Source of the DNA: an uncultured Bacilli bacterium | GTDB lineage: Bacteria > Bacillota_I > Bacilli_A > RF39 > UBA660 | Direction: 5' to 3' | Assembly (NCBI GenBank): GCA_934153675.1 | Contig: CAKPFG010000001.1 | Span: forward strand, 75,426 to 139,425 | Length of the DNA: 64,000 bases | Shown: in pieces, positions 14,037 to 64,000 of the stretch | Layout: every line of letters begins with the position of its first letter | Position numbering within the stretch: position 1 is the first letter of the stretch | Program-made: the position numbers and the translations under genes | The notes under the pieces: generated by a model | Told to the model about the DNA's origin: nothing | Seen by the model: the letters and a program-made list of their open reading frames with translations, nothing else | The model's database searches: none

Positions 14037-14044
14037 TTATATTG

Positions 14045-14075
14045 GACACTCTTTTTTTTGAGTGTCTTTATTTTA
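14045..14075 (+). terminator. Intrinsic terminator/attenuator hairpin between rpsO and pnp
   Basis: gacactc-tttttttt-gagtgtc stem-loop followed by tttatttt, immediately upstream of the pnp RBS. Confidence 0.6.
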
Positions 14076-14085
14076 AGGAGGAAGA

Positions 14086-19982: not shown

Positions 19983-20012
19983 AAAATCCGTTTCTAATTC
20001 GAGACGGATTTT
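19983..20012. terminator. Bidirectional intrinsic terminator between sufS (+) and the small minus-strand gene
   Basis: aatccgtttc-taattc-gagacggatt hairpin flanked by A/T runs on both sides. Confidence 0.6.
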
Positions 20013-20217
20013 ATTTTAATTCACCTTTTATAATGTTAATTATATTATTTTTTTCTTTCGTATCACAATTTTTCCATAAAATTTCAAAAAACACGCCAAG
20101 ACCAGGCAATGTTATTTCATCATTATCTTTAATTGCCTTTTCTATCGAAGAGATAATTTCTTTATCATTACTATTTTTAAAATTATTTTTAATACTTTTT
20201 CTAATATCTATATTCAT
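20011..20217 (-). CDS. Small hypothetical protein (68 aa), possibly sporulation-related
   Basis: MNIDIRKSIKNNFKNSNDKEIISSIEKAIKDNDEITLPGLGVFFEILW...; RBS aggagc. The longer ORF-track ORF (to 20340) starts inside the neighbouring gene. Confidence 0.45.
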   Translation of the reverse strand: MNIDIRKSIKNNFKNSNDKEIISSIEKAIKDNDEITLPGLGVFFEILWKNCDTKEKNNIINIIKGELK

Positions 20218-20275
20218 ATTGCTCCTTTCAATTATATGATGGGTAATTTTAAAAAAAACATACAAAAAACATGGT

Positions 20276-20527
20276 TTAAACCATGTAGTAATTAGAATCA
20301 GTATACTTATTATTATTGATTGGGTTAATGTTATTAGCATTTAAACTATTTACGATTTGTTCTAATTTGTTTACTCTATTTTCTAAATTATTTAGTTGAT
20401 TTTGAATATTTGATATGTCGGTAGTTGTTGATTGAGTATAATTGTAATAAGGCATAGGTTGCATCATTGGCATTTGCATTGTTGGATAAACAGGGTAAAT
20501 TCCCCCACAATTTCTTTTATCTTTCAT
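20276..20527 (-). CDS. Hypothetical P/M/Q/Y/N-rich protein with C-terminal coiled coil (spore-coat-like composition)
   Basis: Start MKDKRNCGG chosen from RBS gaggtgg; ORF open to 20539. Confidence 0.4.
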   Translation of the reverse strand: MKDKRNCGGIYPVYPTMQMPMMQPMPYYNYTQSTTTDISNIQNQLNNLENRVNKLEQIVNSLNANNINPINNNKYTDSNYYMV

Positions 20528-37943: not shown

Positions 37944-38303
37944 ATGAAAGAAAAGTTTAAAGAATTTGTAAAAAAAAATCCTGTTTTATTAAAGTATATT
38001 AATTCAAATGAGATGACTTGGCAACAATTTTATGAAATGTTTGATTTATATGGTGAAGAGGAAAGTGTTTGGAAAAAATATTTAAAGAAGGAAAAATCTG
38101 ATGCGGTGAAAAGTGAAGTTACTAATTCTGCTTTAACAGACTTTTTAGCTTTTTTAAAAACTATTAATTTAGATTCATTGCAAGAGGGAATTGAAAATGT
38201 ACAACGAGTACTTGGCGTATTTCAAGATTTTTCTACCAATAAAAATAAAAGCCCAAAAGAGGAATACAAACCAAGACCTTTATATAAACATTTTGAGGAT
38301 TGA
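37944..38303 (+). CDS. YlbD-like protein (putative spore coat protein family)
   Basis: FKEFVKKNPVLLKYINSNEMTWQQFYEMFDLYGEEESVWKKY aligns with the B. subtilis YlbD N-terminus. Confidence 0.5.
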   Translation: MKEKFKEFVKKNPVLLKYINSNEMTWQQFYEMFDLYGEEESVWKKYLKKEKSDAVKSEVTNSALTDFLAFLKTINLDSLQEGIENVQRVLGVFQDFSTNKNKSPKEEYKPRPLYKHFED

Positions 38304-38527
38304 TGAGTTTAGATATTCAATTTAAATTAAAGGAAAATAGTATGTATTTAAAATATTTGCACTCACATTCTTATTGGTATAAACTTTTAAATAGAGATCC
38401 TGCTAATTTTTCTCTTTTTATATCTAAATTAAAAGAAGATTATCATTTACGCCCAATAGATAGAATTAATAAAACAATAGATACTATAGATATGTTAAGT
38501 AGTATTATTTCAAGTTTGAATAGTTGA
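38300..38527 (+). CDS. YlbE-like protein
   Basis: YLHSHSYWYKLLNRDPANFSLF...HLRPIDRIN...DMLSSI fits the YlbE family pattern (WYR.L.R.P..F...P.R...Q/DM..MM); ATGA overlap with the upstream gene. Confidence 0.5.
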   Translation: MMSLDIQFKLKENSMYLKYLHSHSYWYKLLNRDPANFSLFISKLKEDYHLRPIDRINKTIDTIDMLSSIISSLNS

Positions 38528-39360: not shown

Positions 39361-41400
39361 ATGAAAAAAGTTATTTTGATTGTTGCTTTAGTTATTAGTA
39401 TATTTAGTTTTAACTCTTTAGTTAAGGCTGATTATAAGGCTACGGTATTAATTACAGATGGTTCAAAATGTGAACTAAAGTCATCATCAACAGGGAAGTG
39501 TTTTTATTCTAATACAAATTTTAATTCATATGTATCTGGAGTAGTTTGGTTAGATACAGGTGATGTAGTAACAGTAATTGAAGGCAAGACTTATAATTCA
39601 CCTAATAAATCGCGTTGTGATTCACATTACGTAAAAGCTAAGTATTCATTTCAATCCAATCCCAATAAAGTTTATACAGGATATTTTTGTAATAGCAATC
39701 TAGTTCGCGAGGGGGCCTCCTCTAATTATGCTACAGAACTAAGAAATATGGGTTTTCCAGAGAGTTATGTTTCTAAGTTATCGATATTAAAGCAAGCTCA
39801 TCCTAATTGGACTTTTAAACCTCTGCAAACAGGTCTTACCTTTTCAGAGGCTGTAAATGGTGAAGATTCTTTAGGAAGAAGTTTATTACAGGTGACATCT
39901 TCTGTTAATGATTATGGTTATTTAAGTACATTACCTGGTTCATATAATTATTATAAAGATTCTTTTACAGCTTTCGATGGCTCTAATTGGTATGCTGCTA
40001 ATAGAAATACTATTGCTTATTATATGGATCCTAGAAATTTTTTAGTAGATATGTATATTTTTCAATATGAAGCTTTGGCATATGAGTCTAAATTACAAAC
40101 ATTGCCTGTTGTAAGGAAGTTATTAGATAAAGATTATTTAAATAAATTTTCCTCTAGCTTTATAACTGCCGCTTCCGAATCTAATGTTAGTCCTGTTTAT
40201 CTTGCTTCTTTAGCAAAGCAAGAAGTAGGTGGATATTCTTATGCCACAACTGCTGTTAGTGGAAATTCATTTAGGTATAACGGAAAAAGTTATTCTGGAA
40301 TCTATAATCCATATAATATAGGGGCAACAAGTGGCAGTAATCCTGTTTATAAGGGTTTATATTGGGCAAGTGGTTCATCTGGAACTGATTATAATAGGCC
40401 TTGGAATACAATGGATAAAGCTATTCGTGGTGGTGCAAAATGGATTGGTGAAAAATATATAAATATTGGGCAAAATACTATTTATTTTAAAAAATGGGAT
40501 GTTGTTGGCAATATTAATTTCAATAGTGGTGCTAATTATAATCATCAGTATCAAACTAATATTCAAGCCCCAATGCAAGAGGGAAATTCTGTTTATAAAT
40601 CATATAATAAATCAGGTATATTAAATTCATCTTTTGTTTTTTATATTCCCATTTACAAAGATATGCCAAAAAATACATCACTTCCAGTTACGGGGAGCCC
40701 TAATAATTATTTAAAATCTCTTTCTATAAACGGAAATCCAATTACATCTTTTGACGGTGGTGTTACTAATTATAATTATTATGTAAAAAATGATACTTCA
40801 AATATAACTATTACAGCAACTTCAGTTTCTTCATTAGCATCTATAAGTGGAAGTGGGTATGTTAGTTTAAATAGTAATACTACAACAAGAAAAATAACAG
40901 TAACTGCTAAAAATGGGGATAAGAGAGTTTATATAATTAATATCATAAAGGAAAAAAATGATACCACTAATAATAATAGTATTGAATCTTTGTTAAATAG
41001 TTCTGGAATTAAGCATAATGAAGATTATTTAATGGGATTTAATATAGGCGATGATATTAAAAACTTTGCAAGTAAAATAAATAATTTAAATGGTAGTATA
41101 ACAGTTAAAGATAATAATAAAAATGTTACATCTATTTCTATTAAAACTGGTCTTGATATATCTATTTCTGTAAATGGTAGTTCAAAAAATTTCAAAACAG
41201 TATTGTATGGTGATGTAAATGGTGATGGAAAAATTACCTCAGCAGATTATATCTATGTTAAAAACATAATTATGAAAAGAGCAAATATAAAAGGAGCCTA
41301 TTTAAAAGCAGCTGATGCTGATAAAAATGGTAGTGTAGGCTCATCTGATTACATTAAAATAAAGAATTATATAATGAAAAGGGGAGGAATTGAACAGTGA
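39361..41400 (+). CDS. Secreted multidomain protein with a glucosaminidase (GH73-like) region, cadherin-like beta-sandwich and C-terminal type-I dockerin
   Basis: Signal peptide. ...YLASLAKQEVGGYSY... glucosaminidase-like segment. YLKSLSINGNPITSFDGGVTNYNYYV cadherin-like beta-sandwich. C-terminal duplicated Ca-binding segments DVNGDGKITSADYIYVKNIIM / DADKNGSVGSSDYIKIKNYIM (dockerin). Confidence 0.65.
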   Translation: MKKVILIVALVISIFSFNSLVKADYKATVLITDGSKCELKSSSTGKCFYSNTNFNSYVSGVVWLDTGDVVTVIEGKTYNSPNKSRCDSHYVKAKYSFQSNPNKVYTGYFCNSNLVREGASSNYATELRNMGFPESYVSKLSILKQAHPNWTFKPLQTGLTFSEAVNGEDSLGRSLLQVTSSVNDYGYLSTLPGSYNYYKDSFTAFDGSNWYAANRNTIAYYMDPRNFLVDMYIFQYEALAYESKLQTLPVVRKLLDKDYLNKFSSSFITAASESNVSPVYLASLAKQEVGGYSYATTAVSGNSFRYNGKSYSGIYNPYNIGATSGSNPVYKGLYWASGSSGTDYNRPWNTMDKAIRGGAKWIGEKYINIGQNTIYFKKWDVVGNINFNSGANYNHQYQTNIQAPMQEGNSVYKSYNKSGILNSSFVFYIPIYKDMPKNTSLPVTGSPNNYLKSLSINGNPITSFDGGVTNYNYYVKNDTSNITITATSVSSLASISGSGYVSLNSNTTTRKITVTAKNGDKRVYIINIIKEKNDTTNNNSIESLLNSSGIKHNEDYLMGFNIGDDIKNFASKINNLNGSITVKDNNKNVTSISIKTGLDISISVNGSSKNFKTVLYGDVNGDGKITSADYIYVKNIIMKRANIKGAYLKAADADKNGSVGSSDYIKIKNYIMKRGGIEQ

Positions 41401-42674
41401 AAATAAAAAATAAATTATCTTTTGTTTTAGTATTTTTGTTAAGTTTATTTTTTCAAAATTTGATAATACATGCAGGAAGCTTTAGTGCTTATACTAATAA
41501 AACAACTGTTACTGTTGGAAATACTGTTAAATTAACGCTTAATGTTTCTGATCAAGCTGGAAGATTTTTAATTTCATCTTCCAATAATAGTATTTTATCT
41601 GGTGGAATTGATGAATTTTATGATAATTCTACTAATACTATTTACTTTACTGCCAAAAAAGTTGGTGAGGCAATTATTACAATTAAAGCAGTAGATGTTA
41701 CTAACTATGATGGCACCTCAGCGAATGGTGTGAAAAGTATTAAGATTAAGGTTGTTAGCCCTAATAGTAATAAAAATAGTAATAATAAAAATAGCAATAA
41801 TAAAAATAACGCTATAGATATAAATAAAAAATATAGTGATGATAATTATTTAAAAAGTCTTAAAATAGAAAATTATGACATTGCTTTTGAACGTGAAAAA
41901 CAAAATTATGAATTGGAAGTTGATGAGGATGTTGCATCGATAAATTTAACGGCAACGCCATCATCATCAAGCGCTAATGTACAAGGTACAGGCAATATAA
42001 AATTAACTGATGGAATTAATAATATAAAAATTACTGTAGTTGCAGAAAATGGCAACGAGAGAGTTTATCAAATTAACGTTACAGTTAAAGATTTAAATCC
42101 AATTAAAGTTTATATTAATAAAAAAATGTATACAGTAGTAAAAAAAGTTGATCAATTAACTTTTCCTGATAATTTTTCACAAGTAGAAGCTACTATAGAT
42201 AATAAAAAAGTACCTGCTTTGTATAATGATATAACCGGATATATTTTAGTTGGTCTTAAAGATGATCTTGGTAATGTTAAATTATATGTTTATGATTCAA
42301 AAAAGAATACATATTCCATTTATAATGAATTTTCTTTTAATAGTGTAAAATTATTTTATACTAAGCCAAAAAATGTTCCAAGAGGTTTTAAAAAAATAAA
42401 AATAAATTTAAATGGGGAAAATATTCAAGCTTATACAACTGATAAAAAAAGTGATTTTTATTTGGTTTATGGTATGAATGTTAATACTGGAGAAATTGGT
42501 TTTTATAGATATGACAAGAAAGAAAATACTTTGCAACGTTATGAAACAAAGGATTTAGAAAATTTATCTTTTATAAATAATAAATATTTAATCACCATTG
42601 CATTTCTTAGCACTTCAGTTTTGATGCTTATGTTATTTATGTTGATTATGATTAATAATATAAAGAAAAAATAA
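41397..42674 (+). CDS. Cell-surface protein with Ig-like N-domain, cadherin-like beta-sandwich and C-terminal TM anchor
   Basis: GTG start overlapping the upstream stop (RBS ggggagg). Signal peptide. YLKSLKIENYDIAFEREKQNYELEVDEDVASINLTATP cadherin-like beta-sandwich. NSNNKNSNNKNSNNKNN linker. C-terminal hydrophobic helix plus KKK. Confidence 0.6.
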   Translation: MKIKNKLSFVLVFLLSLFFQNLIIHAGSFSAYTNKTTVTVGNTVKLTLNVSDQAGRFLISSSNNSILSGGIDEFYDNSTNTIYFTAKKVGEAIITIKAVDVTNYDGTSANGVKSIKIKVVSPNSNKNSNNKNSNNKNNAIDINKKYSDDNYLKSLKIENYDIAFEREKQNYELEVDEDVASINLTATPSSSSANVQGTGNIKLTDGINNIKITVVAENGNERVYQINVTVKDLNPIKVYINKKMYTVVKKVDQLTFPDNFSQVEATIDNKKVPALYNDITGYILVGLKDDLGNVKLYVYDSKKNTYSIYNEFSFNSVKLFYTKPKNVPRGFKKIKINLNGENIQAYTTDKKSDFYLVYGMNVNTGEIGFYRYDKKENTLQRYETKDLENLSFINNKYLITIAFLSTSVLMLMLFMLIMINNIKKK

Positions 42675-44079: not shown

Positions 44080-45126
44080 ATGAGTAATATAGAGTTATAT
44101 GAGATATTATTAATGGTTTTTATTCCAATGGCTTTTGTTGGAATATCTATTCCATTTATAAAAAAAATTGCTTTTCATATTAATGCAATAGATATACCAA
44201 ATGAAAGAAAAATTCATAAAAAACCAATGCCAAGGCTTGGTGGACTTGGAATATTTTTTGGTTTTTTGCTTGGATATATGATTTTTGGGAATCATACGTA
44301 TTTAATGAATTCAATTTTGATAGGAAGTTTTGTGCTTCTTATAACAGGGATAATTGATGATATAAATCCATTAAAAGCTAAGGAAAAATTAATTGGTCAA
44401 ATAATTGCTAGTGTTATTGTTGTTGTATATGGGAAAATTGTTTTACAGGATGTTAGTTTCTTTGGAATATACATTAATTTTGGACCTTTAGCTTATCCTA
44501 TTACAGTTTTGTTTATATTAGGGTGTATTAACTGTATGAATTTAATTGATGGGTTAGATGGCCTTGCTGGTGGTATTTCAGCCATATTTTTCTTAACTAT
44601 AGGTATTATTGCCATATTTAAAGGGCAATTTGCTTTAGCAACGACACTTACATTAATAATGTTTGGTTCAACAGTTGGTTTTTTGTTTCATAATTTTAAT
44701 CCTGCCAAAATATTTATGGGTGATTCTGGATCGATGTTTTTAGGGCTTATGATTTCAATAATTACAATTTTGGGATTTAAGAGTGTTATGATGACAAGTA
44801 TTATAATTCCTCTATTTATTTTGGTTGTTCCTATATTAGATACAACTTTTGCTATTATTAGAAGAAAATTGAAGGGTGAGAGTGTTATGACTCCTGATAA
44901 GTGTCATCTTCATCATCAATTATTAAAAAGAAATTTTTCGCAAAGAACAACGGTGTTAATAATATATTTAATTACTATTTTATTTTCTATTGCTTCAATT
45001 ATTTGGATTTTAGTTGATAAGACAATTGGGTATATTATATATGGAATTTTGATGTTTATTTTTATATTTATGGTTTTTAAAACGGATATATTATTTGATA
45101 GAAAAGAGAGGAATGAAAATAAATGA
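44080..45126 (+). CDS. Undecaprenyl-phosphate N-acetylhexosamine-1-phosphate transferase (MraY/WecA/TagO family, GT4 of polyprenyl-P transferases)
   Basis: 10-11 TMs; NLIDGLDGLAGG and FMGDSGSMFLG family motifs; RBS ggtgg. Confidence 0.85.
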   Translation: MSNIELYEILLMVFIPMAFVGISIPFIKKIAFHINAIDIPNERKIHKKPMPRLGGLGIFFGFLLGYMIFGNHTYLMNSILIGSFVLLITGIIDDINPLKAKEKLIGQIIASVIVVVYGKIVLQDVSFFGIYINFGPLAYPITVLFILGCINCMNLIDGLDGLAGGISAIFFLTIGIIAIFKGQFALATTLTLIMFGSTVGFLFHNFNPAKIFMGDSGSMFLGLMISIITILGFKSVMMTSIIIPLFILVVPILDTTFAIIRRKLKGESVMTPDKCHLHHQLLKRNFSQRTTVLIIYLITILFSIASIIWILVDKTIGYIIYGILMFIFIFMVFKTDILFDRKERNENK

Positions 45127-46286
45127 ATTATAATGAATATGATGCTATTGTAGTTGGTACAGGATTTGCTGGTGCAACTATTGCTGAAAGGCTTGCAAAT
45201 GAAAGCAATAAAAAAGTTTTAATAATAGATAAGCGAAATACTATTGCTGGAAATATGTATGATTATATTGATAAAAATGGAATATTAATTCATAAATACG
45301 GTCCACATTTGTTTCATACTAATTTAGATAATGTTTATGAATACATCAATAAATTTGGTGATTGGTTTCCTTATGAACATAGAGTATTAGGAAAAGTGGA
45401 TGGTAAGTTAGTTCCTATTCCATTTAATTTAAAATCTATAGAACTTTGTTTTGATGAAAAAAAATGTGCAAATTTAAAAAAAATTTTATTAAAAGAATAT
45501 GGAATGGAGAAAAAAGTTCCTATATTGGAGCTTAGAAAGAGTAACAATAAAGACATAAATGATTTAGCTGAATTTATTTATGAAAATGTATTTTTATATT
45601 ACACGATGAAGCAATGGGGTCAAAAACCAGAAGAAGTTGATCCTGCAGTTTCTGGAAGAGTTCCTGTTTACATTTCTCAAGACGATAGATATTTTCAGGA
45701 TAAATATCAGGTAATGCCTGTTGATGGTTATACTAAAATCTTTGAAAAAATGCTTGATAATAAAAATATAGATTTAAAATTGTCTACAAATTGTTTAGAT
45801 TTAGTTTCTATGAAAAATGGGAAAATATTTATTGACGGATGTGAATTTAATGGCAAATTTATTTATACAGGGGCAATTGATGAGCTATTTAACTATAAGT
45901 TTGGAGAACTTCCTTATAGATCTTTGAATTTTGAATTTGAGACCAAGAATATGGAATATTATCAACCTGTAGGAACTGTTAATTATCCAACTAAGGAGGA
46001 TAAATTTACTAGAATAACTGAATATAAGCATATGACTAGTGTTTGTTGTAAAAGCAAAAAGACTACAATTATGAAAGAATATCCTTGTCAATATGAATTA
46101 AACAAAAAAATGACGCCTTATTATCCTATTAACAATGAACAATCTGCAGCTTTATATAATGAATATTTAAACGAAGCTTCTAAATATTCTAATTTATATT
46201 TGCTTGGTAGATTAGCACAGTATAAATATTATAATATGGATTTAATTATTAATGAGGCTTTAAAATTGTTTGAAAAAATAAAATAG
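45123..46286 (+). CDS. glf: UDP-galactopyranose mutase
   Basis: FAD-binding IVVGTGFAGATIAERLA; YGPHLFHT and C-terminal GRLAQYKYYNMD motifs; ATGA overlap with the upstream gene. Confidence 0.9.
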   Translation: MNYNEYDAIVVGTGFAGATIAERLANESNKKVLIIDKRNTIAGNMYDYIDKNGILIHKYGPHLFHTNLDNVYEYINKFGDWFPYEHRVLGKVDGKLVPIPFNLKSIELCFDEKKCANLKKILLKEYGMEKKVPILELRKSNNKDINDLAEFIYENVFLYYTMKQWGQKPEEVDPAVSGRVPVYISQDDRYFQDKYQVMPVDGYTKIFEKMLDNKNIDLKLSTNCLDLVSMKNGKIFIDGCEFNGKFIYTGAIDELFNYKFGELPYRSLNFEFETKNMEYYQPVGTVNYPTKEDKFTRITEYKHMTSVCCKSKKTTIMKEYPCQYELNKKMTPYYPINNEQSAALYNEYLNEASKYSNLYLLGRLAQYKYYNMDLIINEALKLFEKIK

Positions 46287-46299
46287 AGAGGTGTTTTAA

Positions 46300-47325
46300 A
46301 TGAAAAAGGCTAAAGTTAGCATTATTGTTCCTATATATAATGTAGAAAAATATTTACCTAAATGTTTAGATTCATTAATAAATCAAACGTTTGATGAGAT
46401 AGAAATATGGGCGATTAGTGATGGTTCGCCTGACAATAGTGTAGAAATTATTAAAAAGTATGCTAAAAAGGATAAGAGAGTAAAATGTATTGAAAAAGAA
46501 AACGGTGGTTATGGTTCCGTTTTAGAATATGCAATTAAGAATATAACTACGGAATATTTTCTTATATGTGATCCAGATGATTGGTTAAGAAGTGATGCTG
46601 TAGAAAAATTATATAATGCGGCTGTTGATAATAAATTGGATTTTGTAAGAGGTGCTTTTAATATTGTGTATTCTAATGATTTAGAAGAACAATTTGAAAG
46701 TGGAGCATCGTTTAAAAATGTATTCGATCCTAAGCCAAATGTCGTGTATGAAGATGATGTTGACAAATTTTTACTTATGACAGTTAGTCCACATTCAAAA
46801 TTATATAAAACAAATTTGGCTAAGGGGATTATCTTTCCACATAAAGTTAGTTTTACAGATACCATTTTGTTTAGTTTATATATACCAAAGGTTAAAAGAG
46901 CAATGTATATTGATGAAGCGTTGTCGTATTATCTTATAGATCGTGAAGGAAATTCTGTAACTGATGCTAAACCGAAAATAGCAGATGATCATTATACAGT
47001 ATTTATGTCCATGGCTGAACAGTATGAAAAATATGAGAAAAAAACTCCATATTTTTATTACAGAATGTTCTTACAATATATTTATGCTAATTTTGAAATA
47101 GGAAAAATAAAGGATAAGACAATATATTTAGAAAAAAGAGAATTAATGTATGAACTATTAAAGTATTGTATAAAACATAGAAAAAAAATATATCCATTGC
47201 TTCGTAATGAGCCGTTAAAAAAGAAAATTGATTATAAACTTTTATTAAGTAAGAGATTTTCTAGAAAAATGTTTGAAATGCATTCTAATAACATATGGAA
47301 ACATTTTCATGGTGATAATTTATAA
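46300..47325 (+). CDS. Family 2 glycosyltransferase
   Basis: VSIIVPIYNVEKYLPKCLDSLINQTF ... ISDGSPDNS ... DPDD (DXD) motifs. Confidence 0.8.
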   Translation: MKKAKVSIIVPIYNVEKYLPKCLDSLINQTFDEIEIWAISDGSPDNSVEIIKKYAKKDKRVKCIEKENGGYGSVLEYAIKNITTEYFLICDPDDWLRSDAVEKLYNAAVDNKLDFVRGAFNIVYSNDLEEQFESGASFKNVFDPKPNVVYEDDVDKFLLMTVSPHSKLYKTNLAKGIIFPHKVSFTDTILFSLYIPKVKRAMYIDEALSYYLIDREGNSVTDAKPKIADDHYTVFMSMAEQYEKYEKKTPYFYYRMFLQYIYANFEIGKIKDKTIYLEKRELMYELLKYCIKHRKKIYPLLRNEPLKKKIDYKLLLSKRFSRKMFEMHSNNIWKHFHGDNL

Positions 47326-48779
47326 TGAAAAAAAGTTTAACAAGTAATTATATATATATGACATTTTATCAGTTATTATCGGTAATAGTACCGATAATAA
47401 CTGCACCATATTTAGCGCGTACTTTGGGAGTGTCTGGGGTTGGAATATATTCATATACATATTCTATATTTAACTGGGCCTTATTAATTGCAACTTTAGG
47501 TATTTCTTTATATGCTACAAAAGAAATTGCGAAAGTAGGGAATAATAAACAATTAATTTCAAAAACTTTTTCTGAAATATATTTGATGCAGATACTGTTT
47601 AATTTATTAATAATTATTTTATACTATTTATTAATTTTTACTTTTAATGTAAAATACAAAATAATATATATAATCTATGGTATTATTTTAGTTGGCAATT
47701 TAATAAATGTATCTTGGTTTTATAGTGGCATCGAAGAATTTAAGAAATTATCTATAAGAGGTTGTTTAGTAAAGATACTTTCTGTTTTTTTAATTTTATT
47801 GTTTGTTAGGGGGAAAAATGCTTTAATCATTTATGTTACAATCTTGTCATTAGCTACTTTTATTAGTAATATATATCTTTTGTTTGGATTAACAAAACGA
47901 ACAAAAATTAATTTTAAAGATGTAACTGTAAGTAGCATGTTTGGCCATTTTAAACATAATCTTATCCTTTTTATACCACAGATAGCAATCAGTATATATA
48001 CGTTATTGGATCAACCTATGATAGGATGGCTATCGGGTTCAACAGATGAAGTTGGATTTTATTTAAAAGCAGAACAATTAGTTAAAATGGTGCTTTATAT
48101 AATTACAACATTAGGTACAATAATGATGCCTAGAATAGCAAGTTTATATAAACGTAAAGATATAAGTAAAGTGAAAAAGTATTTAAATAAAGTTATAGAT
48201 ATAGTTTTATATTTATCTATTCCAATGATGTTTGGTTTAGCTGCAGTTTCTTCTTTTTTTATTGAGTGGTTTTTAACACCAGCTTTTTCTCGTGTATCAT
48301 TAATTATGATGGTTATCTCACCAATTATAGTATTTATTTCCCTTTCAAATGTAATAGGTGTACAGTACTTATTACCAACTGATAACACTAAATATTATAT
48401 TAAATCTGTTATTTTAGGGGCATTAGTGAATTTTATTTGTAATCTTATATTAATACCTAATTTGAAAGCTATTGGTGCCGCCATTGGGACAGTAATTGCC
48501 GAATTTTCTGTGTTCTTATATCAATTCATTGTGGTTAGAAAAATGAAAGTATTCGAAAATCATATAAAATATGCTACCACATGTTTTATAAATGGTTTAA
48601 TTATGTTTATTGTTATTTATTTTTTAGGTAATTTATTAGGAGTTGGTGTGTTTACGACTATTATTCAAATTATTGTGGGAATATTGATTTATACAATTTT
48701 ATCTAAAATTTTTAAAATTTCTATTCAAGAGGAGATGTCTAAAATATGTTTACAAAAACTACATATAAAAAGAAAATAA
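47325..48779 (+). CDS. Polysaccharide flippase (Wzx; MOP superfamily polysaccharide biosynthesis protein)
   Basis: 484 aa, ~14 TMs, N-terminus LLSVIVPIITAPYLARTLGVSGVGIYSY typical of Wzx/PST proteins. Confidence 0.8.
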   Translation: MKKSLTSNYIYMTFYQLLSVIVPIITAPYLARTLGVSGVGIYSYTYSIFNWALLIATLGISLYATKEIAKVGNNKQLISKTFSEIYLMQILFNLLIIILYYLLIFTFNVKYKIIYIIYGIILVGNLINVSWFYSGIEEFKKLSIRGCLVKILSVFLILLFVRGKNALIIYVTILSLATFISNIYLLFGLTKRTKINFKDVTVSSMFGHFKHNLILFIPQIAISIYTLLDQPMIGWLSGSTDEVGFYLKAEQLVKMVLYIITTLGTIMMPRIASLYKRKDISKVKKYLNKVIDIVLYLSIPMMFGLAAVSSFFIEWFLTPAFSRVSLIMMVISPIIVFISLSNVIGVQYLLPTDNTKYYIKSVILGALVNFICNLILIPNLKAIGAAIGTVIAEFSVFLYQFIVVRKMKVFENHIKYATTCFINGLIMFIVIYFLGNLLGVGVFTTIIQIIVGILIYTILSKIFKISIQEEMSKICLQKLHIKRK

Positions 48780-49717
48780 GTGTAATAGTGCCGGTATACA
48801 ATGTAGAATTATATTTAGATAAATGTTTAAATTCTATTGTTTCACAGGATTTTGATGATTATGAAATAGTAATTGTTAATGATGGCAGTACAGATAACAG
48901 CCAAAAAATCATAGATAAATATGCCAAACAATATCCTAATTTAGTTAAAAGCTTTGAAAAAGTAAATGGAGGTTTATCGTCTGCTAGAAATTATGGAATT
49001 AAAAATAGTATTGGAAAATATTTAATGTTTGTTGATAGTGATGATTATATAGATCAATCAGCACTAAAAAAAATATATAATTGTGTACTTAAAGATGATT
49101 CAGATATTGTTGTATATAATTATTACAATGTAAAAAACGGTCAATGTTTGAAAAATCCTGGCTATATTTCTAATTGCTTTTCAAATTTTGAAAAATATAT
49201 AGTAAATCAACCATCAGCATGTAATAAATTAATTCGTGCATCTATATTTAAAAACAATAATATTTATTTTCCAGAGGGAAGATATTATGAAGATTTAGGT
49301 ACTATGCCAATACTTTCTATTTATGCTAATAAAATATCATTTTTAGATGATTATTTGTATTATTATATTCAAAGAGAAAATTCTATAATGCATAGAAAAA
49401 AATATAACAAAAAAATGGAAGATATTTTTATCATATTGGATAATATAAGTTATATATATGAAAAGCATAATTTGTATAATAAATATTTTTCAGAGATAGA
49501 GTATTTATATATAAATCATTTACTTAGAGCAGCTAGTATTAGATTTTTAGATTATAAAAAATATGATATGATAGATAAAATAAGAAAAATTATGAAAGAA
49601 AAGTATCCAAAATTTACAAAAAATAATTATTTTAAAATGTATGGTGTTAAACAAAAATTTATGTGTAGGTTATTATATAGTGGACATTATAAATTAGTAG
49701 AGTTGCTCAGAAAATAG
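48746..49717 (+). CDS. Family 2 glycosyltransferase
   Basis: ISVIVPVYNVELYLDKCLNSIVSQDF ... VNDGSTDNS ... FVDSDD; overlaps the flippase 3' end by 34 nt. Confidence 0.8.
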   Translation: MFTKTTYKKKISVIVPVYNVELYLDKCLNSIVSQDFDDYEIVIVNDGSTDNSQKIIDKYAKQYPNLVKSFEKVNGGLSSARNYGIKNSIGKYLMFVDSDDYIDQSALKKIYNCVLKDDSDIVVYNYYNVKNGQCLKNPGYISNCFSNFEKYIVNQPSACNKLIRASIFKNNNIYFPEGRYYEDLGTMPILSIYANKISFLDDYLYYYIQRENSIMHRKKYNKKMEDIFIILDNISYIYEKHNLYNKYFSEIEYLYINHLLRAASIRFLDYKKYDMIDKIRKIMKEKYPKFTKNNYFKMYGVKQKFMCRLLYSGHYKLVELLRK

Positions 49718-49725
49718 GTGATAGT

Positions 49726-52101
49726 ATGAAAGAAAAAATTTTTAACAAATGGTTAGTACTTTTTATTTTAATTCAACCATTATTTGACGTTATAACATCT
49801 TTTATGACTAAATTTGGTATAAGTGTAACTGTTGGAATTTTTGTTAAAATTATAATTTTAGGTTTAATGGTATTTTATTTATTGATTGTTGATAAAAATA
49901 AGCGAAAACTAAATTTTTTATGTATAGGATTAATATTTATTTTTTGTATCGGCAATCTTTGTTGTAATTATCATAAAATGCAAGCTAGTTTTGTTTCGTA
50001 TGCTGGATATTTAATGAAGTATATTTATTTTTTGATTACTTTATTATACTTTATTAAATGGAATCAAAATGGTCATATGATTAAATTAAACGAATTAAGA
50101 ATTCCATTTGTTATTATTGCTTTGACAATGTTTTTATCTTGGATAACAGGAAGTGCTTTTGATACTTATTTGGCATCTAGTGGGAAAAGTGGAACATCAG
50201 GTTGGTTTTTTTCGGGTAATGAAATTGGAGCTTTACTTAGTATAATTTTTCCAATAACATTGTATAATGCTTTTTATAATCCTAAAAGTCATAAGTGGGA
50301 AATAGTTGTTGCAATAATTATTGGTATTGCATTGTTGACTCTTGGAACAAAAGTTGGTCTGCTTGGTTATTTTTTAACTATTTTTGGCTATTTAGTTTAT
50401 AGAATTTTAACTATTAAAAATTATAAATTTGATTATAGATTTGCAATTTGTATAGTAGTGTTATTAATTCCACTTTTTATGTGGAAAAATATTCCTGCTA
50501 TTCATAATACACAAATGAAGTATGAGGTTTTAGATATTGACAACGAAAATATTACTAAAGAAGAAAAAAAAGAACGAATGAATTATTTAATCTATAGTGG
50601 GCGCAATAGGTATGTTTCTCAAATGATAGAAAAAAGAAAAAATATAAATATTTTAGAAATGGTTTTTGGAACATTTTATTTAAGATCTGATAATACAATT
50701 TTAATTACTGAACAAGATTTGTATGATATTTATTTTCTGTTTGGTATATTTGGATTTTTAATGTTTATTGTTTCGTTTATATATTTATTATTCAATTGTT
50801 TGAAAAATTGTTTTAAAAAAATAAAGGTAAAAATCTTTGATATTAAATTAATTTTATGTTTACTTAGTTTAATTTTGGGTATAGGAGTTTCTATAATGTC
50901 AGGACATACTATACTTGCTCCAAGTGTTAGTACTTTTTTGCTTATAATTTTTATCAATTTTTATGCTAGATGTTTTGAAAAAAAGGAAAATACTAAAGAG
51001 AATTTATTAATTGGTTCTGTACACTTAGAAATAGGGGGTATTGAAAGAACTTTAATTAGTTTATTAAAAAATATTAACTATAAAAAATATAATGTTGATT
51101 TGATGCTTTTAAAACCAAGTGGAGCGTTTTTTGATGAAATTCCACAAGAAGTTAATGTAATTACACCTTATAATTCCAAACTAATGAAAAAAATAGTTTC
51201 AACTAATAATTTTATTTGTAAGATTATAAAACATTTATGTTTTAATTATATAACAGGTAAAATATTTTCAACTAACAAAAATTATAAAACAGCAATTTCT
51301 TATTCTGGTTATTATTCTTTTGTTGATATGTATGTTGGCAGTAGCAATGCTTCTAAAAAAATAATTTGGGTTCATACGGATGTTAAATATTTATATGATC
51401 ATGATTTAAAATATCAAAAGAAATTCAATAGGGTTAAAAATAAATATAATAAGTTCAATTTAATTGTTGGTGTAAGTGAGGGTGTGAAAGAAAGCTTTGA
51501 AAGCATTATGCCAAAATATAAAGGCAAGGTTACTTATTTGTGGAATTTATTGAATTTTGATGATCCAAATAAAACTATCAATTTAAAATTGAGTGGAAAA
51601 TGTAAAATAATAGCTGTTGGAAGATTATGTACACAAAAAAGATTTGATAAGATTATTAAGGCCCTTACTTTAGTTAAAGAAGATGTTATTGTTTATATTG
51701 TTGGTGATGGAGTATTAAAAGAACAGTTAGTAGATCTTGCCCATAAAGAAAAAGTTGATAATAAAATTGAATTTTTAGGAGCTCTTAATAATGTTACAAG
51801 TGTCATTAAACAAGCTGATTTATTTTTATCAACCTCAGATTTTGAAGGTTTACCAACGGTTCTTATGGAAGCTTTATTATGCAATGTTCCTATTGTTGCT
51901 ACTGATGTTTGTGGTAATAATGATATTTATAAATACATAGCTCCTAAGGGAAGTATGATTCTTTGTAAAAATGATATTGCTTCTATCAGCAAAGCTATAA
52001 CTATGGCATGTCATGGAAAAACAAGCAAGAATTTTAAATTTGATGTAAAAAAATATAATCAAAATATTTTAAAAAAATTTTATAAATTAATAGGTGATTA
52101 A
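49726..52101 (+). CDS. Fusion protein: N-terminal O-antigen polymerase/ligase-like (Wzy-type) polytopic domain + C-terminal GT4 (Glycos_transf_1) glycosyltransferase
   Basis: ~11 TMs in the first 410 aa with a large loop. The C-terminal 380 aa carry the GT4 fold with EGLPTVLMEALLCNVPIVATDVCGN (EX7E). Confidence 0.7.
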   Translation: MKEKIFNKWLVLFILIQPLFDVITSFMTKFGISVTVGIFVKIIILGLMVFYLLIVDKNKRKLNFLCIGLIFIFCIGNLCCNYHKMQASFVSYAGYLMKYIYFLITLLYFIKWNQNGHMIKLNELRIPFVIIALTMFLSWITGSAFDTYLASSGKSGTSGWFFSGNEIGALLSIIFPITLYNAFYNPKSHKWEIVVAIIIGIALLTLGTKVGLLGYFLTIFGYLVYRILTIKNYKFDYRFAICIVVLLIPLFMWKNIPAIHNTQMKYEVLDIDNENITKEEKKERMNYLIYSGRNRYVSQMIEKRKNINILEMVFGTFYLRSDNTILITEQDLYDIYFLFGIFGFLMFIVSFIYLLFNCLKNCFKKIKVKIFDIKLILCLLSLILGIGVSIMSGHTILAPSVSTFLLIIFINFYARCFEKKENTKENLLIGSVHLEIGGIERTLISLLKNINYKKYNVDLMLLKPSGAFFDEIPQEVNVITPYNSKLMKKIVSTNNFICKIIKHLCFNYITGKIFSTNKNYKTAISYSGYYSFVDMYVGSSNASKKIIWVHTDVKYLYDHDLKYQKKFNRVKNKYNKFNLIVGVSEGVKESFESIMPKYKGKVTYLWNLLNFDDPNKTINLKLSGKCKIIAVGRLCTQKRFDKIIKALTLVKEDVIVYIVGDGVLKEQLVDLAHKEKVDNKIEFLGALNNVTSVIKQADLFLSTSDFEGLPTVLMEALLCNVPIVATDVCGNNDIYKYIAPKGSMILCKNDIASISKAITMACHGKTSKNFKFDVKKYNQNILKKFYKLIGD

Positions 52102-60477: not shown

Positions 60478-60563
60478 AATAACTGAAAGAATAGATGAAA
60501 TATATATTAATGTTATAATAATCTAATATTAAAAAGAAAAATTTTAATTGTGAAAAATAAATT

Positions 60564-60592
60564 TGACAAAATAGAAAATAAATGATAATATT
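60564..60592 (+). promoter_or_regulatory. Sigma-A-like promoter upstream of the ORF-free GC-enriched segment (ttgaca - 17 nt - taatat with upstream tg)
   Basis: TTGACA at 60564-60569; aaatgaTAATAT at 60581-60592. Confidence 0.35.
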
Positions 60593-60599
60593 TAGTTTG

Positions 60600-61202
60600 T
60601 AATGGCACATTATTCTAGTCAATTACATTTATTATGAAGACGGGATTAAAAAACCGTACATTAGCACATCTGTGAAGCTTTTGGTGCTTGCTTCTTACGC
60701 CCAGTTTGGGGTGGGTGCTGGAAGAATTAATGTTGGGCGCTCGTAATGGCATACGATTCCGACCCACCATTTATTTGAGACCTTTCTTTGTGTTTGGCCT
60801 ATACGTGTATACTGATGGACCGGATACGAACAAGGATTAAACCTATTTGTGGCGAAAGTTATGAATAGTGTAGCTTGCCTTGAGTGATATATGGGGATTA
60901 ACGTATAGTTGATATTATCTAGCTAATAATTGTAACTGTTATGAAACATTTATTGCAAAAGAGACTAATAATAAATGATTGTAGAGGAAAACTCCTAGAG
61001 TGACATTAATATAGGATTACAGTACGTACTAAGTGGTAATCAAGTCATATATCTGGCAACACTATATCTTATTCTTTAAAGGGGAACCACTTATTGGTAA
61101 CGATAAGTAGAATATGGGGAAATCCAACTTGACCTAAGACGTAAAGTTAACTTTATTAATTGCCATATAGAAGTATAAAAAGGTCTAAGACCTTTTTATT
61201 TT
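60600..61202 (+). ncRNA. Candidate large structured ncRNA (~600 nt), OLE-like
   Basis: ~40% GC versus ~25% for flanking DNA. Stops in all six frames (only a 63-aa antisense ORF nearby). Multiple local and long-range complementarities (ggtgggt 60706-12 with acccacc 60763-69; cttat-tggtaacga-taag hairpin). Bounded by the promoter above and an intrinsic terminator at 61177-61202. Followed by a small 4-TM protein gene. Confidence 0.4.
61177..61202 (+). terminator. Intrinsic terminator at the 3' end of the candidate ncRNA
   Basis: aaaaaggtc-taa-gaccttttt hairpin followed by tattttat. Confidence 0.6.
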
Positions 61203-61586
61203 ATAAGAAGAAGGTTGAAAATAAAAATATCAGTTAAGGCATTAGCAATATTGACATTAGAAACTAACTAATCGCTGCAACTAATTAAATCTTCAGTAAA
61301 AGTATTAAATGATTTAGTTTGATAATCAGTTATATCTCTATCATTGGTTTTAAATATTAACAACAATAGTTTTTTTGTGAACATCAATACTTGCACAATC
61401 TTGGTAAACAATTTTAAGCATACAAAAATACTAAAGCAAAAGATAAAAATATTCACCACTCACCTCTACGTGCTTTTGTAGTATGCCTAATAACAGTTTA
61501 CTATTATATCAAAAAAATAATTATTTTAATTACAATGTGTGCCTTTCAGAGGACTGAAAGGACGAAGAAAGGAATGTTTGTTAAAA

Positions 61587-62111
61587 ATGAAAAATAATTA
61601 TAAATGGATTTTAAAAATATCATTAATTGCCCTTTTTTTGTCTATCTTTTTTACTTTTTTGGCAAATACAGTTATTTCTAATGTATCAATTATCTTAGGA
61701 ATAGTTATAACTGTATTTATAATAATTATTGGAATAATATTTGATATGATTGGTGTAGCCATTGCTTCTGTAAGCCCGTCACCATTTCATTCTATGGCAT
61801 CAAAGAAAAAAAGCGGAGCAAAAATGGCTTTGAAATTGATAAAAAACAAGGATAAAGTATCATCTTTTTGTTGTGATGTAGTAGGTGATATTTGTGGAAT
61901 TATTTCAGGTTCTACTGGTACAGTAATAATTGCAAGTATTGTGTCAAATTTAAAATGTAATGAACTTCTTATATCACTTATTGTAATAAGTTTAATTTCT
62001 AGTTTAACAATTGCAGGTAAAGCTTGTGAAAAAAAATTTGCTATGAACAAAAGTGTTAAAATTATATATACATTTGCAAAAATATTAAGTATATTTGAAA
62101 AGAAAAATTAA
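61587..62111 (+). CDS. Small four-TM membrane protein, candidate OapA-like partner of the upstream ncRNA
   Basis: ~175 aa (ORF open from 61539). Four hydrophobic helices with a basic loop SKKKSGAKMALKLIKNKDK and a CCDVVGDICG motif. Confidence 0.45.
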   Translation: MKNNYKWILKISLIALFLSIFFTFLANTVISNVSIILGIVITVFIIIIGIIFDMIGVAIASVSPSPFHSMASKKKSGAKMALKLIKNKDKVSSFCCDVVGDICGIISGSTGTVIIASIVSNLKCNELLISLIVISLISSLTIAGKACEKKFAMNKSVKIIYTFAKILSIFEKKN

Positions 62112-62416: not shown

Positions 62417-62626
62417 GTGAATGATTTAAATAATAAACTTAAAAAAATATTTGGAGGTATAGATTATCAAAATAATGATATTCCTTCTTATGAAATTGCA
62501 TTTGGTAAAATCAATGATTTAGCTGATCAAAATATTTATAAATTAGCAGATACAGGTTGTGGTGGCGTTTGTGATAGAACTATTCAGTATAAAATTATAA
62601 AGGCTCTAAAAAATGATATACAATAA
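62417..62626 (+). CDS. Small hypothetical protein (69 aa)
   Basis: ORF with a weak RBS; no recognisable domain. Confidence 0.25.
   Translation: MNDLNNKLKKIFGGIDYQNNDIPSYEIAFGKINDLADQNIYKLADTGCGGVCDRTIQYKIIKALKNDIQ

Positions 62627-62898: not shown

Positions 62899-64000
<1,102 letters not shown>

What the first reader, a model, noticed from the sequence alone, without database searches (positions are those of the whole stretch)
60564..62111. Candidate OLE-like large noncoding RNA followed by an OapA-like four-TM protein
A ~600-nt stretch (60600-61202) has ~40% GC against a ~25% background and stop codons in every frame. It shows numerous internal complementarities (for example ggtgggt 60706-12 / acccacc 60763-69, and gtatac-centred and cttat/ataag hairpins). 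It is preceded by a TTGACA-17-TAATAT promoter and ends in a clean intrinsic terminator (aaaaaggtc-taa-gaccttttt + T-run). Immediately downstream is a ~19-kDa protein with four predicted TM helices and a basic cytoplasmic loop. Length, GC enrichment in an AT-rich anaerobe-like Firmicute, and the adjacent small 4-TM protein match the described ole-oapA arrangement (OLE = ornate, large, extremophilic RNA). I cannot verify the OLE consensus by eye. tmRNA, RNase P, SRP and 6S signatures are absent. obg lies ~0.8 kb further downstream.
Basis: partly seen in the sequence, partly recalled or inferred. Interest (0 to 1): 0.65.

Follow-up and report, generated by a model that had tools for sequence, protein, structure and literature searches.

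The report
OLE RNA gene with oapA partner

Summary
Window 60586-61182 (+) matches Rfam RF01071 (OLE RNA) end to end at 361 bits (gathering score 50, E 1.8e-102). It is the only Rfam hit in the 64 kb window. Of the model's highly conserved nucleotides, 207 of 249 are retained. Of the 149 consensus pairs present, 133 are canonical. In 31 relatives the fold shows heavy compensatory change.

The ORF at 61587-62111 has the features published for OapA: 174 aa, four TM helices, an invariant DxxxD motif, a lysine-rich loop, a weak CNNM/DUF21 match, and a CorB-like predicted fold. Homologs of it in 51 of 63 other genomes sit directly downstream of an OLE RNA.

Corrections to the finding:
- GC is 35%, not 40%.
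- oapA is not immediately downstream. A 384-nt spacer holding a decayed IS110-family transposase remnant separates it from the ole terminator.
- The quoted ggtgggt/acccacc pairing is not part of the consensus fold.

The promoter and terminator are real and conserved in position across relatives. OLE RNAs in gut Bacilli genomes assembled from metagenomes are already described (Fernando & Breaker 2024). Verdict: already known, low interest.

The parts
60563..60591 (+). Sigma-70-type promoter of ole: -35 TTGACA (60563-68), 17-nt spacer, extended -10 TGaTAATAT (60583-91)
   Evidence: One search finds a 10/12 match with TG. One search finds TTGACA-17-TGnTATAAT (mostly 12/12) in 30 of 31 related ole loci, at the same place: 11-18 nt before the conserved UGGCAC.
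60598..61204 (+). OLE RNA gene. The Rfam match is 60586-61182. The transcript is probably about 60598 to about 61204, from just after the -10 box to the terminator; these ends are inferred.
   Evidence: RF01071, 361 bits, E 1.8e-102, model 1-616; 207/249 conserved nucleotides and 133/149 pairs retained; 86% of cells paired against 35-49% in slid controls, and 110/149 pairs with compensatory change.
60620..60635 (+). 5' strand of the long-range helix P3/P3.1. It pairs with 60968-60981 (10 + 4 bp around a 2-nt bulge) and closes the P4-P9 domain. This is the helix proposed in the literature to cross the membrane.
   Evidence: The pairing is read from the sequence and recovered by the single-sequence MFE fold; 89% of cells paired against 33-61% slid, 10/14 pairs with compensatory change, 0/500 shuffles. 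This helix is not in the Rfam model; the name follows the text of PMC12265935.
60645..60652 (+). A-rich loop AUUAAAAA of the hairpin 60639-60658. My reading is that this is L4, the A-A dimer bridge; the name is inferred from paper text.
   Evidence: UAAA is invariant in 32 sequences. Dimer contacts are described in PMC12286853.
60678..60724 (+). Long hairpin with the invariant GCCCA loop (P5/P5.1)
   Evidence: 20 pairs, 90% paired, 13 with compensatory change. Stem naming comes from B. halodurans numbering in PMC9723947.
60877..60965 (+). P9 arm, about 9 nt shorter than the model. Its terminal loop carries the palindrome UAGCUA (60920-60925), the L9.3 kissing-loop dimer contact in its AGCU version.
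   Evidence: Relatives carry GGCC, AGCU, CGCG or GUAC palindromes at this site. PMC12286853 reports GGCC/GAUC/AGCU covariation here.
61004..61161 (+). 3' domain (P12-P15). It includes P13 with a GNRA loop GCAA (61056-59) and a bulged U, which together form the published OapB site, and P14.1 with the loop GUAA (61097-61100).
   Evidence: helices 13-18 are 83-100% paired, nearly all pairs covary. OapB site definition: PMC7936274.
61177..61204 (+). Intrinsic terminator of ole: a 9-11 bp hairpin followed by UUUUUAUUUUAU
   Evidence: (dG -10.6). Most relatives have a hairpin and T-run at the same place after the 3' GCCAU.
61205..61541 (-). Spacer holding a decayed IS110-family insertion sequence. 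61421->61359 encodes MLKIVYQDCASIDVHKKTIVV, which matches residues 1-21 of an IS110 transposase; the reading frame is broken after that.
   Evidence: 57% identity to Enterococcus raffinosus WP_222225448.1 residues 1-21. The sister strain L064 instead keeps residues 318-408 (39%, E 1e-14); annotated IS110 hits; the window and L064 differ only in this segment. Relative L067 has no spacer.
61542..61561 (+). 8-bp hairpin CCUUUCAG-AGGA-CUGAAAGG just upstream of the oapA ribosome-binding site (AAAGGAA, 61568-74). Its role is unknown.
   Evidence: dG -12.2. It is conserved in L064 with one loop change.
61587..62111 (+). oapA: a 174-aa membrane protein with four TM helices, DVVGD at residues 97-101, and a lysine-rich loop at residues 73-90
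   Evidence: PF01595, 34.4 bits against a cutoff of 28.4. D97, G100 and D101 are invariant in 42 homologs. AF2 pLDDT 85; top PDB folds are MtCorB 7M1T/7M1U and CorC 7CFF. OLE lies upstream of homologs in 51/63 genomes.

Best explanation
The locus encodes a functional OLE (ornate, large, extremophilic) RNA and its membrane partner OapA, in a low-GC, apparently spore-forming gut or rumen member of the Bacilli.

**Shown here**
- A ~605-nt noncoding segment fits the OLE family model in both sequence and structure.
- It has a strong promoter and an intrinsic terminator that are conserved in position across relatives.
- It keeps the family's conserved loops and helices. These include the long-range P3 helix, the A-rich loop, the palindromic P9 kissing loop, and the GNRA-plus-bulge P13 hairpin.
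- 404 nt downstream of the Rfam match lies an intact gene for an OapA-type four-helix membrane protein.

**Inferred from work on H. halodurans and Clostridium OLE RNAs**
- The RNA is made as an abundant independent transcript.
- It dimerises through the A-rich loop and the AGCU kissing loop.
- OapA dimers bind it and hold it at (perhaps through) the cytoplasmic membrane.
- The resulting ribonucleoprotein helps the cell cope with stresses such as alcohols, cold, excess Mg2+ and poor carbon sources. OapA is possibly a CNNM-like divalent-cation transporter whose regulatory domains are replaced by the RNA.

**The spacer**
An IS110-family element once inserted between the ole terminator and oapA and has since decayed. 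oapA must therefore be expressed either by read-through of the terminator or from a weak promoter in the spacer.
For: - Rfam RF01071 matches at 361 bits over the full length.
- 83% of highly conserved consensus nucleotides and 89% of consensus pairs are retained.
- Across 31 distinct sequences, 86% of cells are paired against 35-49% in slid controls. 110/149 pairs have compensatory changes, and 0/500 shuffles reach the observed values.
- The P3 helix is supported separately.
- The OLE sequence is identical in a second strain whose adjacent spacer has been rearranged by a large indel.
- Promoter and terminator are conserved in position in relatives.
- OapA features are present.
- 51/63 homolog loci have OLE directly upstream.
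- Published biology: PMC12265935, PMC11332333, PMC12286853, PMC9723947, PMC7936274.
Against: - There are no expression data for this organism.
- The small hairpin at model positions 424-435 is absent. It is absent in the whole clade, so this is not specific decay.
- J6/7, part of the published OapC k-turn region, reads UUUGAG instead of the consensus GUGGAG.
- No OapB or OapC gene was found among the window ORFs scanned against Pfam (most of those of 70 aa or more; the 44080-52101 cluster was not scanned). The window is only 64 kb.
- The IS remnant separates ole from oapA, and no good promoter is seen for oapA.
- The biochemical function of any OLE RNA remains unknown.
Confidence: 0.96

Rival explanations
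1. The ole-oapA pair is a decaying relic. The IS110 insertion uncoupled the two genes, and the RNA, the protein or both are no longer functional in this lineage.
For: - An IS110 remnant sits between the ole terminator and oapA, and no convincing oapA promoter is found.
- There are deviations at conserved J6/7 positions, and the small hairpin at model positions 424-435 is missing.
- The literature notes that reduced gut clades often lack OapB and OapC (PMC11332333).
Against: - The OLE sequence is 100% identical between two strains, while the neighbouring spacer has undergone a 175-nt versus 451-nt replacement.
- oapA is intact, 99% identical in the second strain, and keeps all invariant residues.
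- The ole promoter and terminator are intact.
- The IS itself is the thing that has decayed.
- Loss of the small hairpin is shared by the whole clade of ~30 species that otherwise show compensatory evolution.
Confidence: 0.03
2. The GC-rich segment is not an RNA gene. It is either a degraded protein-coding gene or a long 5' leader or riboswitch controlling the downstream membrane protein.
For: - It lies upstream of, and on the same strand as, a membrane-protein gene.
- The adjacent spacer really is a degraded coding sequence.
Against: - There are stops in all six frames.
- The segment matches a 616-position covariance model over its full length at E 1e-102.
- Substitutions are compensatory in stems rather than codon-patterned.
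- It has its own terminator, and 384 nt of unrelated DNA lie between it and the ORF.
- In relatives the same RNA is followed by a terminator and often by a second promoter.
Confidence: 0.01

Closest known systems
OLE RNA (Rfam RF01071; Puerta-Fernandez et al. 2006; consensus models in PMC9723947 and PMC11332333)
   Same: - The length is about 600 nt.
- It matches the model over its full length at 361 bits.
- Conserved single-stranded blocks are kept: UAUUCUAGUCA, GCCCA, AAUGGCAU, GGAUU..UGAAA, CUCCUAGAG, ACUAAGUGGUAAUC and GACCUAAG.
- All major stems P3-P10 and P12-P15 are present.
- The P9 loop is palindromic.
- P13 and P14.1 carry GNRA loops.
- oapA lies downstream on the same strand.
- The host is in the Bacillota.
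   Different: - It is AT-rich (35% GC).
- P9 is ~9 nt shorter and P8 ~3 nt shorter than the model, while the P7 loop is 11 nt longer.
- The small hairpin at model positions 424-435 is deleted.
- J6/7 reads UUUGAG instead of GUGGAG.
- It is a stand-alone transcription unit with its own terminator, rather than part of a long operon as in H. halodurans.
- It is separated from oapA by an IS110 remnant.
[quoted passage not shown]
   Same: - It comes from the same kind of host, low-GC gut or rumen Bacillota known from metagenome assemblies.
- Its Rfam score falls in the middle of three score clusters seen here: about 200-235, about 335-420 and above 420 bits.
- P8 and P9 are somewhat shortened, as described for variant 1.
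   Different: - It is not variant 2, because P7 and P8 are present.
- Unlike many variant 1 RNAs it keeps the GNRA tetraloop and bulge of P13 (the OapB site).
- The paper's cutoffs refer to its own covariance model, so a formal assignment could not be made.
OapA (OLE-associated protein A; H. halodurans BH2780 type)
   Same: - The protein is about 175 aa with four TM helices.
- It has the DxxxD motif (DVVGD) and a basic loop.
- It has a weak CNNM/DUF21 similarity.
- Its predicted fold is closest to the archaeal CorB TM domain, as published for OapA.
- The gene lies downstream of ole.
   Different: It is only ~40% identical to the OapA homolog next to a Bacillaceae OLE (L047). No direct comparison with the H. 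halodurans sequence was possible here. RNA binding was not tested.
MpfA/CorB/CorC (CNNM-family Mg2+ exporters)
   Same: The transmembrane domain fold is shared, with a PF01595 match and Foldseek top hits 7M1T, 7M1U and 7CFF.
   Different: - There are no CBS pair or CorC/HlyC domains.
- It has four rather than three TM helices.
- The DxxxD motif is present.
- The PDB sequence match is not significant (E 0.35).

Membership tests
OLE RNA (RF01071) | Covariance-model score above the curated gathering score, over the full model | tested here: met
   361 bits against 50, E 1.8e-102, model 1-616 of 616, not truncated.
OLE RNA (RF01071) | Retention of the many highly conserved nucleotides (~25% of positions) | tested here: met
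   207 of 249 upper-case consensus positions are identical; about 130 columns are invariant across 32 related sequences.
OLE RNA (RF01071) | Ornate secondary structure supported by covariation | tested here: met
   - 133/149 pairs are canonical in the window.
- 86% of cells are paired against 35-49% slid, 110 pairs show changes on both sides against 39-55 slid, and 0/500 shuffles reach the observed values.
- the long-range P3 helix is supported.
OLE RNA (RF01071) | Dimerisation elements: a palindromic L9.3 kissing loop and an A-rich loop | tested here: met
   UAGCUA lies at 60920-25, the AGCU variant reported in PMC12286853. AUUAAAAA lies at 60645-52. Presence in the sequence is all that was tested; dimerisation itself was not.
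OLE RNA (RF01071) | OapB site: a GNRA tetraloop plus a single-nucleotide bulge in P13 | tested here: met
   The GCAA loop is at 61056-59 with a bulged U at 61052, plus one C-C mismatch. No OapB gene was found in the 64-kb window. The rest of the genome could not be searched.
OLE RNA (RF01071) | k-turn (J4a/5 with J5/6 or J6/7) bound by OapC | tested here: inconclusive
   GUGAAG at 60672-77 is retained. J6/7 reads UUUGAGAC instead of GUGGAGAC, with two conserved G's replaced. No L7Ae-type gene was found in the window.
OLE RNA (RF01071) | oapA is the immediate downstream neighbour on the same strand | tested here: met
   oapA is at 61587-62111 on the same strand and is the next gene. It is 404 nt from the end of the RNA match because of an IS110 remnant.
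OLE RNA (RF01071) | Host is an anaerobic or extremophilic member of the Bacillota | tested here: inconclusive
   The nearest relatives are gut or rumen 'Bacilli', 'Erysipelotrichaceae' or 'Tenericutes' metagenome-assembled genomes. The window carries sporulation genes. The organism itself was not identified.
OLE RNA (RF01071) | Abundant ~600-nt transcript localised to the membrane | not testable with these tools
   This needs RNA-seq or Northern data and cell fractionation.
OapA | Small protein with four transmembrane helices | tested here: met
   One search gives the hydropathy profile. One search gives AF2 helices at 5-31, 35-61, 88-122 and 126-154, with pLDDT 85.
OapA | DxxxD motif, which is absent from CNNM domains | tested here: met
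   DVVGD lies at residues 97-101. D97, G100 and D101 are invariant in 42 homologs. The motif definition comes from PMC11332333.
OapA | Conserved cluster of basic residues on a loop | tested here: met
   Residues 73-90 read KKKSGAKMALKLIKNKDK, and K74 is conserved. The side of the membrane was not determined.
OapA | Weak similarity to the CNNM/DUF21 TM domain, without CBS or CorC domains | tested here: met
   - PF01595, 34.4 bits (cutoff 28.4), covering residues 41-171.
- The protein is only 174 aa long.
- MtCorB is the top fold match (E 8e-3, TM 0.50).
OapA | Co-occurrence with ole | tested here: met
   51 of 63 genome loci encoding homologs have OLE upstream on the same strand.
OapA | Binds OLE RNA and tethers it to the membrane | not testable with these tools
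   This needs a biochemical assay.
MpfA/CorC-type CNNM Mg2+ transporter | [quoted passage not shown] | tested here: not met
   The only hit is a partial PF01595 match. The protein ends at residue 174.
IS110 family insertion sequence (spacer only) | Intact DEDD transposase gene | tested here: not met
   Only codons 1-21 are recognisable in the window, and only codons 318-408 in strain L064. Pfam gives no hit on the fragments. The element is a remnant.

The most novel reading that the evidence does not exclude
The most novel reading not excluded has two parts.

First, this gut-Bacilli lineage may carry a distinct OLE sub-architecture. It keeps P7/P8 and the OapB-type P13 loop, lacks the hairpin at model positions 424-435, has an altered J6/7, and has the AGCU kissing loop.

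Second, ole and oapA here are natural, separately transcribed units, split in this species by an IS110 insertion just after the terminator. That would be a natural experiment showing that co-transcription of the RNA and its membrane partner is dispensable.
Probability: 0.35. Interest if true: 0.2.

Novelty: already known. Interest (0 to 1): 0.15.

Why it matters
OLE RNA is one of the largest and best conserved bacterial noncoding RNAs whose biochemical function is still unknown. It has recently been proposed to span the membrane as a dimer.

This copy adds only one more member from a clade where OLE has already been catalogued, among thousands of known representatives. It does not open a new question.

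Three modest points are of use:
- The first-stage reader can recognise OLE-oapA loci from raw sequence.
- The clade alignment gives clean covariation for the long-range P3 helix and for the palindromic kissing loop.
- The IS110 remnant shows that ole and oapA tolerate physical uncoupling.

Tried and rejected
- NCBIfam gave no family for the 174-aa protein. 'OapA' membership therefore rests on Pfam CNNM, motifs, fold and synteny, not on a named model.
- A sequence search of the PDB gave only a non-significant hit to CorB (E 0.35). The fold search was needed.
- Pfam found nothing in the two IS fragments at E<=0.01. tblastn against annotated plasmids, followed by pairwise tblastn with an annotated IS110 transposase, identified them.
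The two heptamers are the 3' arms of different consensus stems.
- GC content was rejected as a unique marker, because other 600-nt stretches of the window are richer.
- I looked for OapB (KOW) and OapC (L7Ae/YbxF) among the window's small and large ORFs. None was found. ORFs 44080-52101 were not scanned, and the rest of the genome is unavailable.
- I could not assign the RNA formally to 'full-length' or 'variant 1'. The published cutoffs belong to a different covariance model.
- A covariance model of my own was not built. The RNA exceeds the 400-column limit and the Rfam model sufficed.
- The names P2, P4 and P4a were inferred from paper text, not from the figures, and are flagged as such.
Full report
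**Observation**

- Window 60600-61202 has 11-17 stop codons in each of the six frames. The longest open run is 75 codons.
- GC is 35.2% against 24.4% for the window. The first 300 nt are 41% and the remainder 29%.
The segment is not the most GC-rich 600-nt stretch of the window; the pnp region near 15001 reaches 37.8%.
- The promoter TTGACA(60563-68)-17-TAATAT(60586-91), with a TG two bases upstream of the -10, is there.
- The hairpin AAAAAGGUC-UAA-GACCUUUUU at 61177-61197, followed by AUUUUAU, is there (dG -10.6 kcal/mol).
- The simple terminator scan scores this hairpin only on the minus strand, because the plus-strand T-run is interrupted by one A.
- obg begins at 62902.

**Identity of the RNA**

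The Rfam scan of the whole window gives a single match above a gathering score. It is RF01071 (OLE) at 60586-61182 on the plus strand, 361 bits against a threshold of 50, E 1.8e-102. It covers model positions 1-616 without truncation.

I transcribed that alignment and counted:
- 207 of the 249 highly conserved (upper-case) consensus positions are identical in the window.
- Of 159 consensus pairs, 133 are canonical, 16 are not, and 10 are deleted.
- The only element lost outright is the 4-bp hairpin at model positions 424-435.
- The first ~12 nt of the Rfam match are the -10 region of the promoter. The RNA itself probably starts near 60598-60600.

**Independent support from relatives**

A scan of one genome per species for homologs of the downstream protein returned 63 loci. 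Almost all are gut or rumen metagenome-assembled genomes labelled Bacilli, Erysipelotrichaceae, 'Tenericutes' or Bacillota.

Rfam finds OLE directly upstream on the same strand in 51 of them. Two of the 12 negatives have too little upstream DNA to tell.

I aligned the window RNA with 31 of these (alignment A1) and projected the Rfam structure onto it:
- 86% of cells are paired, against 35-49% when the 3' partners are slid by 1-3 columns.
- 110 of 149 pairs show changes on both sides, against 39-55 in the slid controls.
- None of 500 shuffles reaches the observed values.

The structure string was projected from the window row, which favours the 'cells paired' measure. The compensatory-change counts are not affected in that way.

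The newer literature model also has a long-range P3/P3.1 helix, which the Rfam model lacks.
- In the window I find it as 60626-60635 with 60968-60977 (10 bp), plus 60620-60623 with 60978-60981 (4 bp).
- The single-sequence MFE fold recovers it.
- Covariation supports it: 89% paired against 33-61% slid, 10 of 14 pairs with compensatory change.
- Its size matches the published description of about 12 bp with a small bulge (PMC12265935).
- The MFE fold also pairs the two ends, AUGGCA at 60602-07 with UGCCAU at 61160-65.

**Functional elements**

Stem names follow the B. halodurans numbering in PMC9723947 and PMC7936274. The names P2, P4 and P4a are my inference from text.
- The hairpin 60639-60658 has the A-rich loop AUUAAAAA.
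- The long P5 hairpin has the invariant GCCCA loop, and P6 has AAUGGCAU.
- P7 and P8 are both present. The RNA is therefore not the 'variant 2' form that lacks them (PMC11332333).
- P9 is about 9 nt shorter than the model. It ends in the palindrome UAGCUA (60920-25).
- Kretsch et al. report exactly this site switching between GGCC, GAUC and AGCU, as evidence for an intermolecular kissing loop (PMC12286853). In A1 the relatives carry GGCC, AGCU, CGCG or GUAC palindromes there.
- P13 has a GNRA loop (GCAA, 61056-59) and a bulged U, which together form the published OapB site. P14.1 has GUAA.
- J6/7, part of the OapC k-turn region, reads UUUGAG instead of GUGGAG. I leave the k-turn as inconclusive.
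- Rfam scores across all loci fall into three clusters: about 200-235 bits for RNAs of about 480 nt lacking P7/P8, about 335-420 bits, and above 420 bits. These echo the three classes of Fernando & Breaker. The window falls in the middle cluster.

**Transcription signals**

In 30 of 31 related loci a TTGACA-17-TGnTATAAT promoter, usually a perfect 12/12 match, lies 11-18 nt before the conserved UGGCAC. Most loci also have a hairpin plus T-run just after the conserved 3' GCCAU.

**The protein**

The ORF 61587-62111 encodes 174 aa (18.8 kDa, pI 9.7).
- It matches Pfam PF01595 (CNNM/DUF21 transmembrane domain) at 34.4 bits, just above the cutoff of 28.4. It matches nothing in NCBIfam.
- That weak CNNM match is what Fernando & Breaker describe for OapA. 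They also describe four TM helices, a DxxxD motif absent from true CNNM domains, and a predicted fold closest to archaeal CorB 7M1U (PMC11332333).
- All of these hold here. Hydropathy and the AlphaFold2 model (pLDDT 85) give four long helices.
- DVVGD lies at residues 97-101, with D97, G100 and D101 invariant in 42 homologs.
- A lysine-rich loop lies at residues 73-90.
- The best PDB folds are MtCorB 7M1T/7M1U and CorC 7CFF (E 8e-3, TM 0.50). These scores are modest, but they are the only hits that stand out.
- There are no CBS or CorC domains, so it is not an MpfA/CorC transporter.

**The spacer**

oapA is not immediately downstream. There are 384 nt between the terminator tail and the start codon.
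- A second strain of the same species (L064, 99% identical; OLE 100% identical) differs from the window only here. Window 61243-61417 is replaced by 451 nt.
- A related species (L067; OLE 88% identical, OapA 74%) has the terminator only ~17 nt from the oapA start.
- On the minus strand, window 61421->61359 encodes MLKIVYQDCASIDVHKKTIVV. This is 57% identical to residues 1-21 of an annotated Enterococcus IS110-family transposase.
- L064 instead encodes residues 318-408 of the same protein (39%, E 1e-14).

The spacer is therefore the wreck of an IS110-family element that inserted just after the ole terminator and has been deleted differently in two strains. An 8-bp hairpin (61542-61561, dG -12.2) sits just before the oapA ribosome-binding site. 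Its role is unknown.

**Mechanism**

What is shown:
- an intact OLE-family RNA gene with its own promoter and terminator;
- intact dimer-contact and protein-site motifs;
- an intact OapA gene;
- purifying selection on the RNA, from identity between strains next to a rearranged spacer and from compensatory evolution across species.

What is inferred from H. halodurans and Clostridium work:
- The RNA dimerises.
- OapA dimers bind it at the membrane.
- The particle supports tolerance of alcohol, cold, excess Mg2+ and poor carbon sources. OapA is possibly a CNNM-like cation transporter regulated by the RNA.

The biochemical activity of OLE RNA is unknown for every member of the family.

**Novelty and verdict**

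OLE RNA has been known since 2006, and thousands of representatives are catalogued. These include variants in uncultured gut Bacillota (PMC11332333; 8,585 non-redundant sequences in PMC12286853).

This locus would be annotated automatically by Rfam. The finding is a correct recognition of a known element, with minor errors of detail. Novelty: already known. Interest: low.

Noticed in passing
window 61205-61586 (minus strand); L064 2340-2960: The spacer between ole and oapA holds a decayed IS110-family insertion sequence. The window keeps transposase codons 1-21 and the sister strain L064 keeps codons 318-408. The related species L067 has no insertion. IS110 elements carry a 5' noncoding guide ('bridge') RNA, so 61422-61540 might hold its remnant; this was not tested.
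   Followed up: partly
window 61542-61561: A perfect 8-bp hairpin (CCUUUCAG-AGGA-CUGAAAGG, dG -12.2) lies immediately upstream of the oapA ribosome-binding site. It is conserved in strain L064. It has no T-run, so it is not a terminator.
   Followed up: no
L001-L067, 60 nt upstream of each OLE: Nearly every related ole gene has a perfect consensus extended -10 promoter (TTGACA-17-TGnTATAAT). Many loci also have a second TGnTATAAT between the ole terminator and oapA, which suggests separate transcription of the two genes in this clade.
   Followed up: partly
L002, L021, L024, L029, L033, L040, L044, L048, L050, L057: These loci encode OapA homologs of 38-54% identity but have no OLE RNA within 3 kb on either side. 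Either ole lies elsewhere in those genomes or these are OapA-like proteins without the RNA.
   Followed up: no
L041 3589-3621, L052 3566-3599, L055 1175-1205, L062 3596-3628, L063 2315-2346: In the short (~480 nt) OLE loci that lack P7/P8, an L31-Firmicutes ribosomal-protein leader (RF03156) follows oapA directly. The gene neighbourhood there (rpmE) therefore differs from the obg neighbourhood of the window.
   Followed up: no
L067 4672-5117: In the related species, a ToxN-like (type III toxin-antitoxin) gene, apparently split, and a 275-aa ORF of unknown function lie between oapA and obg. The window has only a short unannotated stretch there, with a 69-aa ORF (62417-62626, no Pfam hit).
   Followed up: no
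window 12391-13542, 20011-20340 (-), 37944-38527: Sporulation-associated genes (SpoVE/FtsW family, SspI, YlbD coat protein, YlbE) are present in a 24% GC genome. The host therefore looks like a spore-forming low-GC member of the Bacilli rather than a wall-less Mollicute, despite the 'Tenericutes' labels on some relatives.
   Followed up: partly
window 4593-8651 and 39361-42674: A 1352-aa ORF has no Pfam match. Further along lie adjacent ORFs with a dockerin type I domain and a cadherin-like domain, which may be cell-surface or cellulosome-like proteins.
   Followed up: no
window 13767-16215: rpsO (S15) and pnp (PNPase) lie 45 kb upstream of ole. PNPase is listed in the literature as a candidate OLE-interacting protein. 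No linkage is implied at this distance.
   Followed up: no
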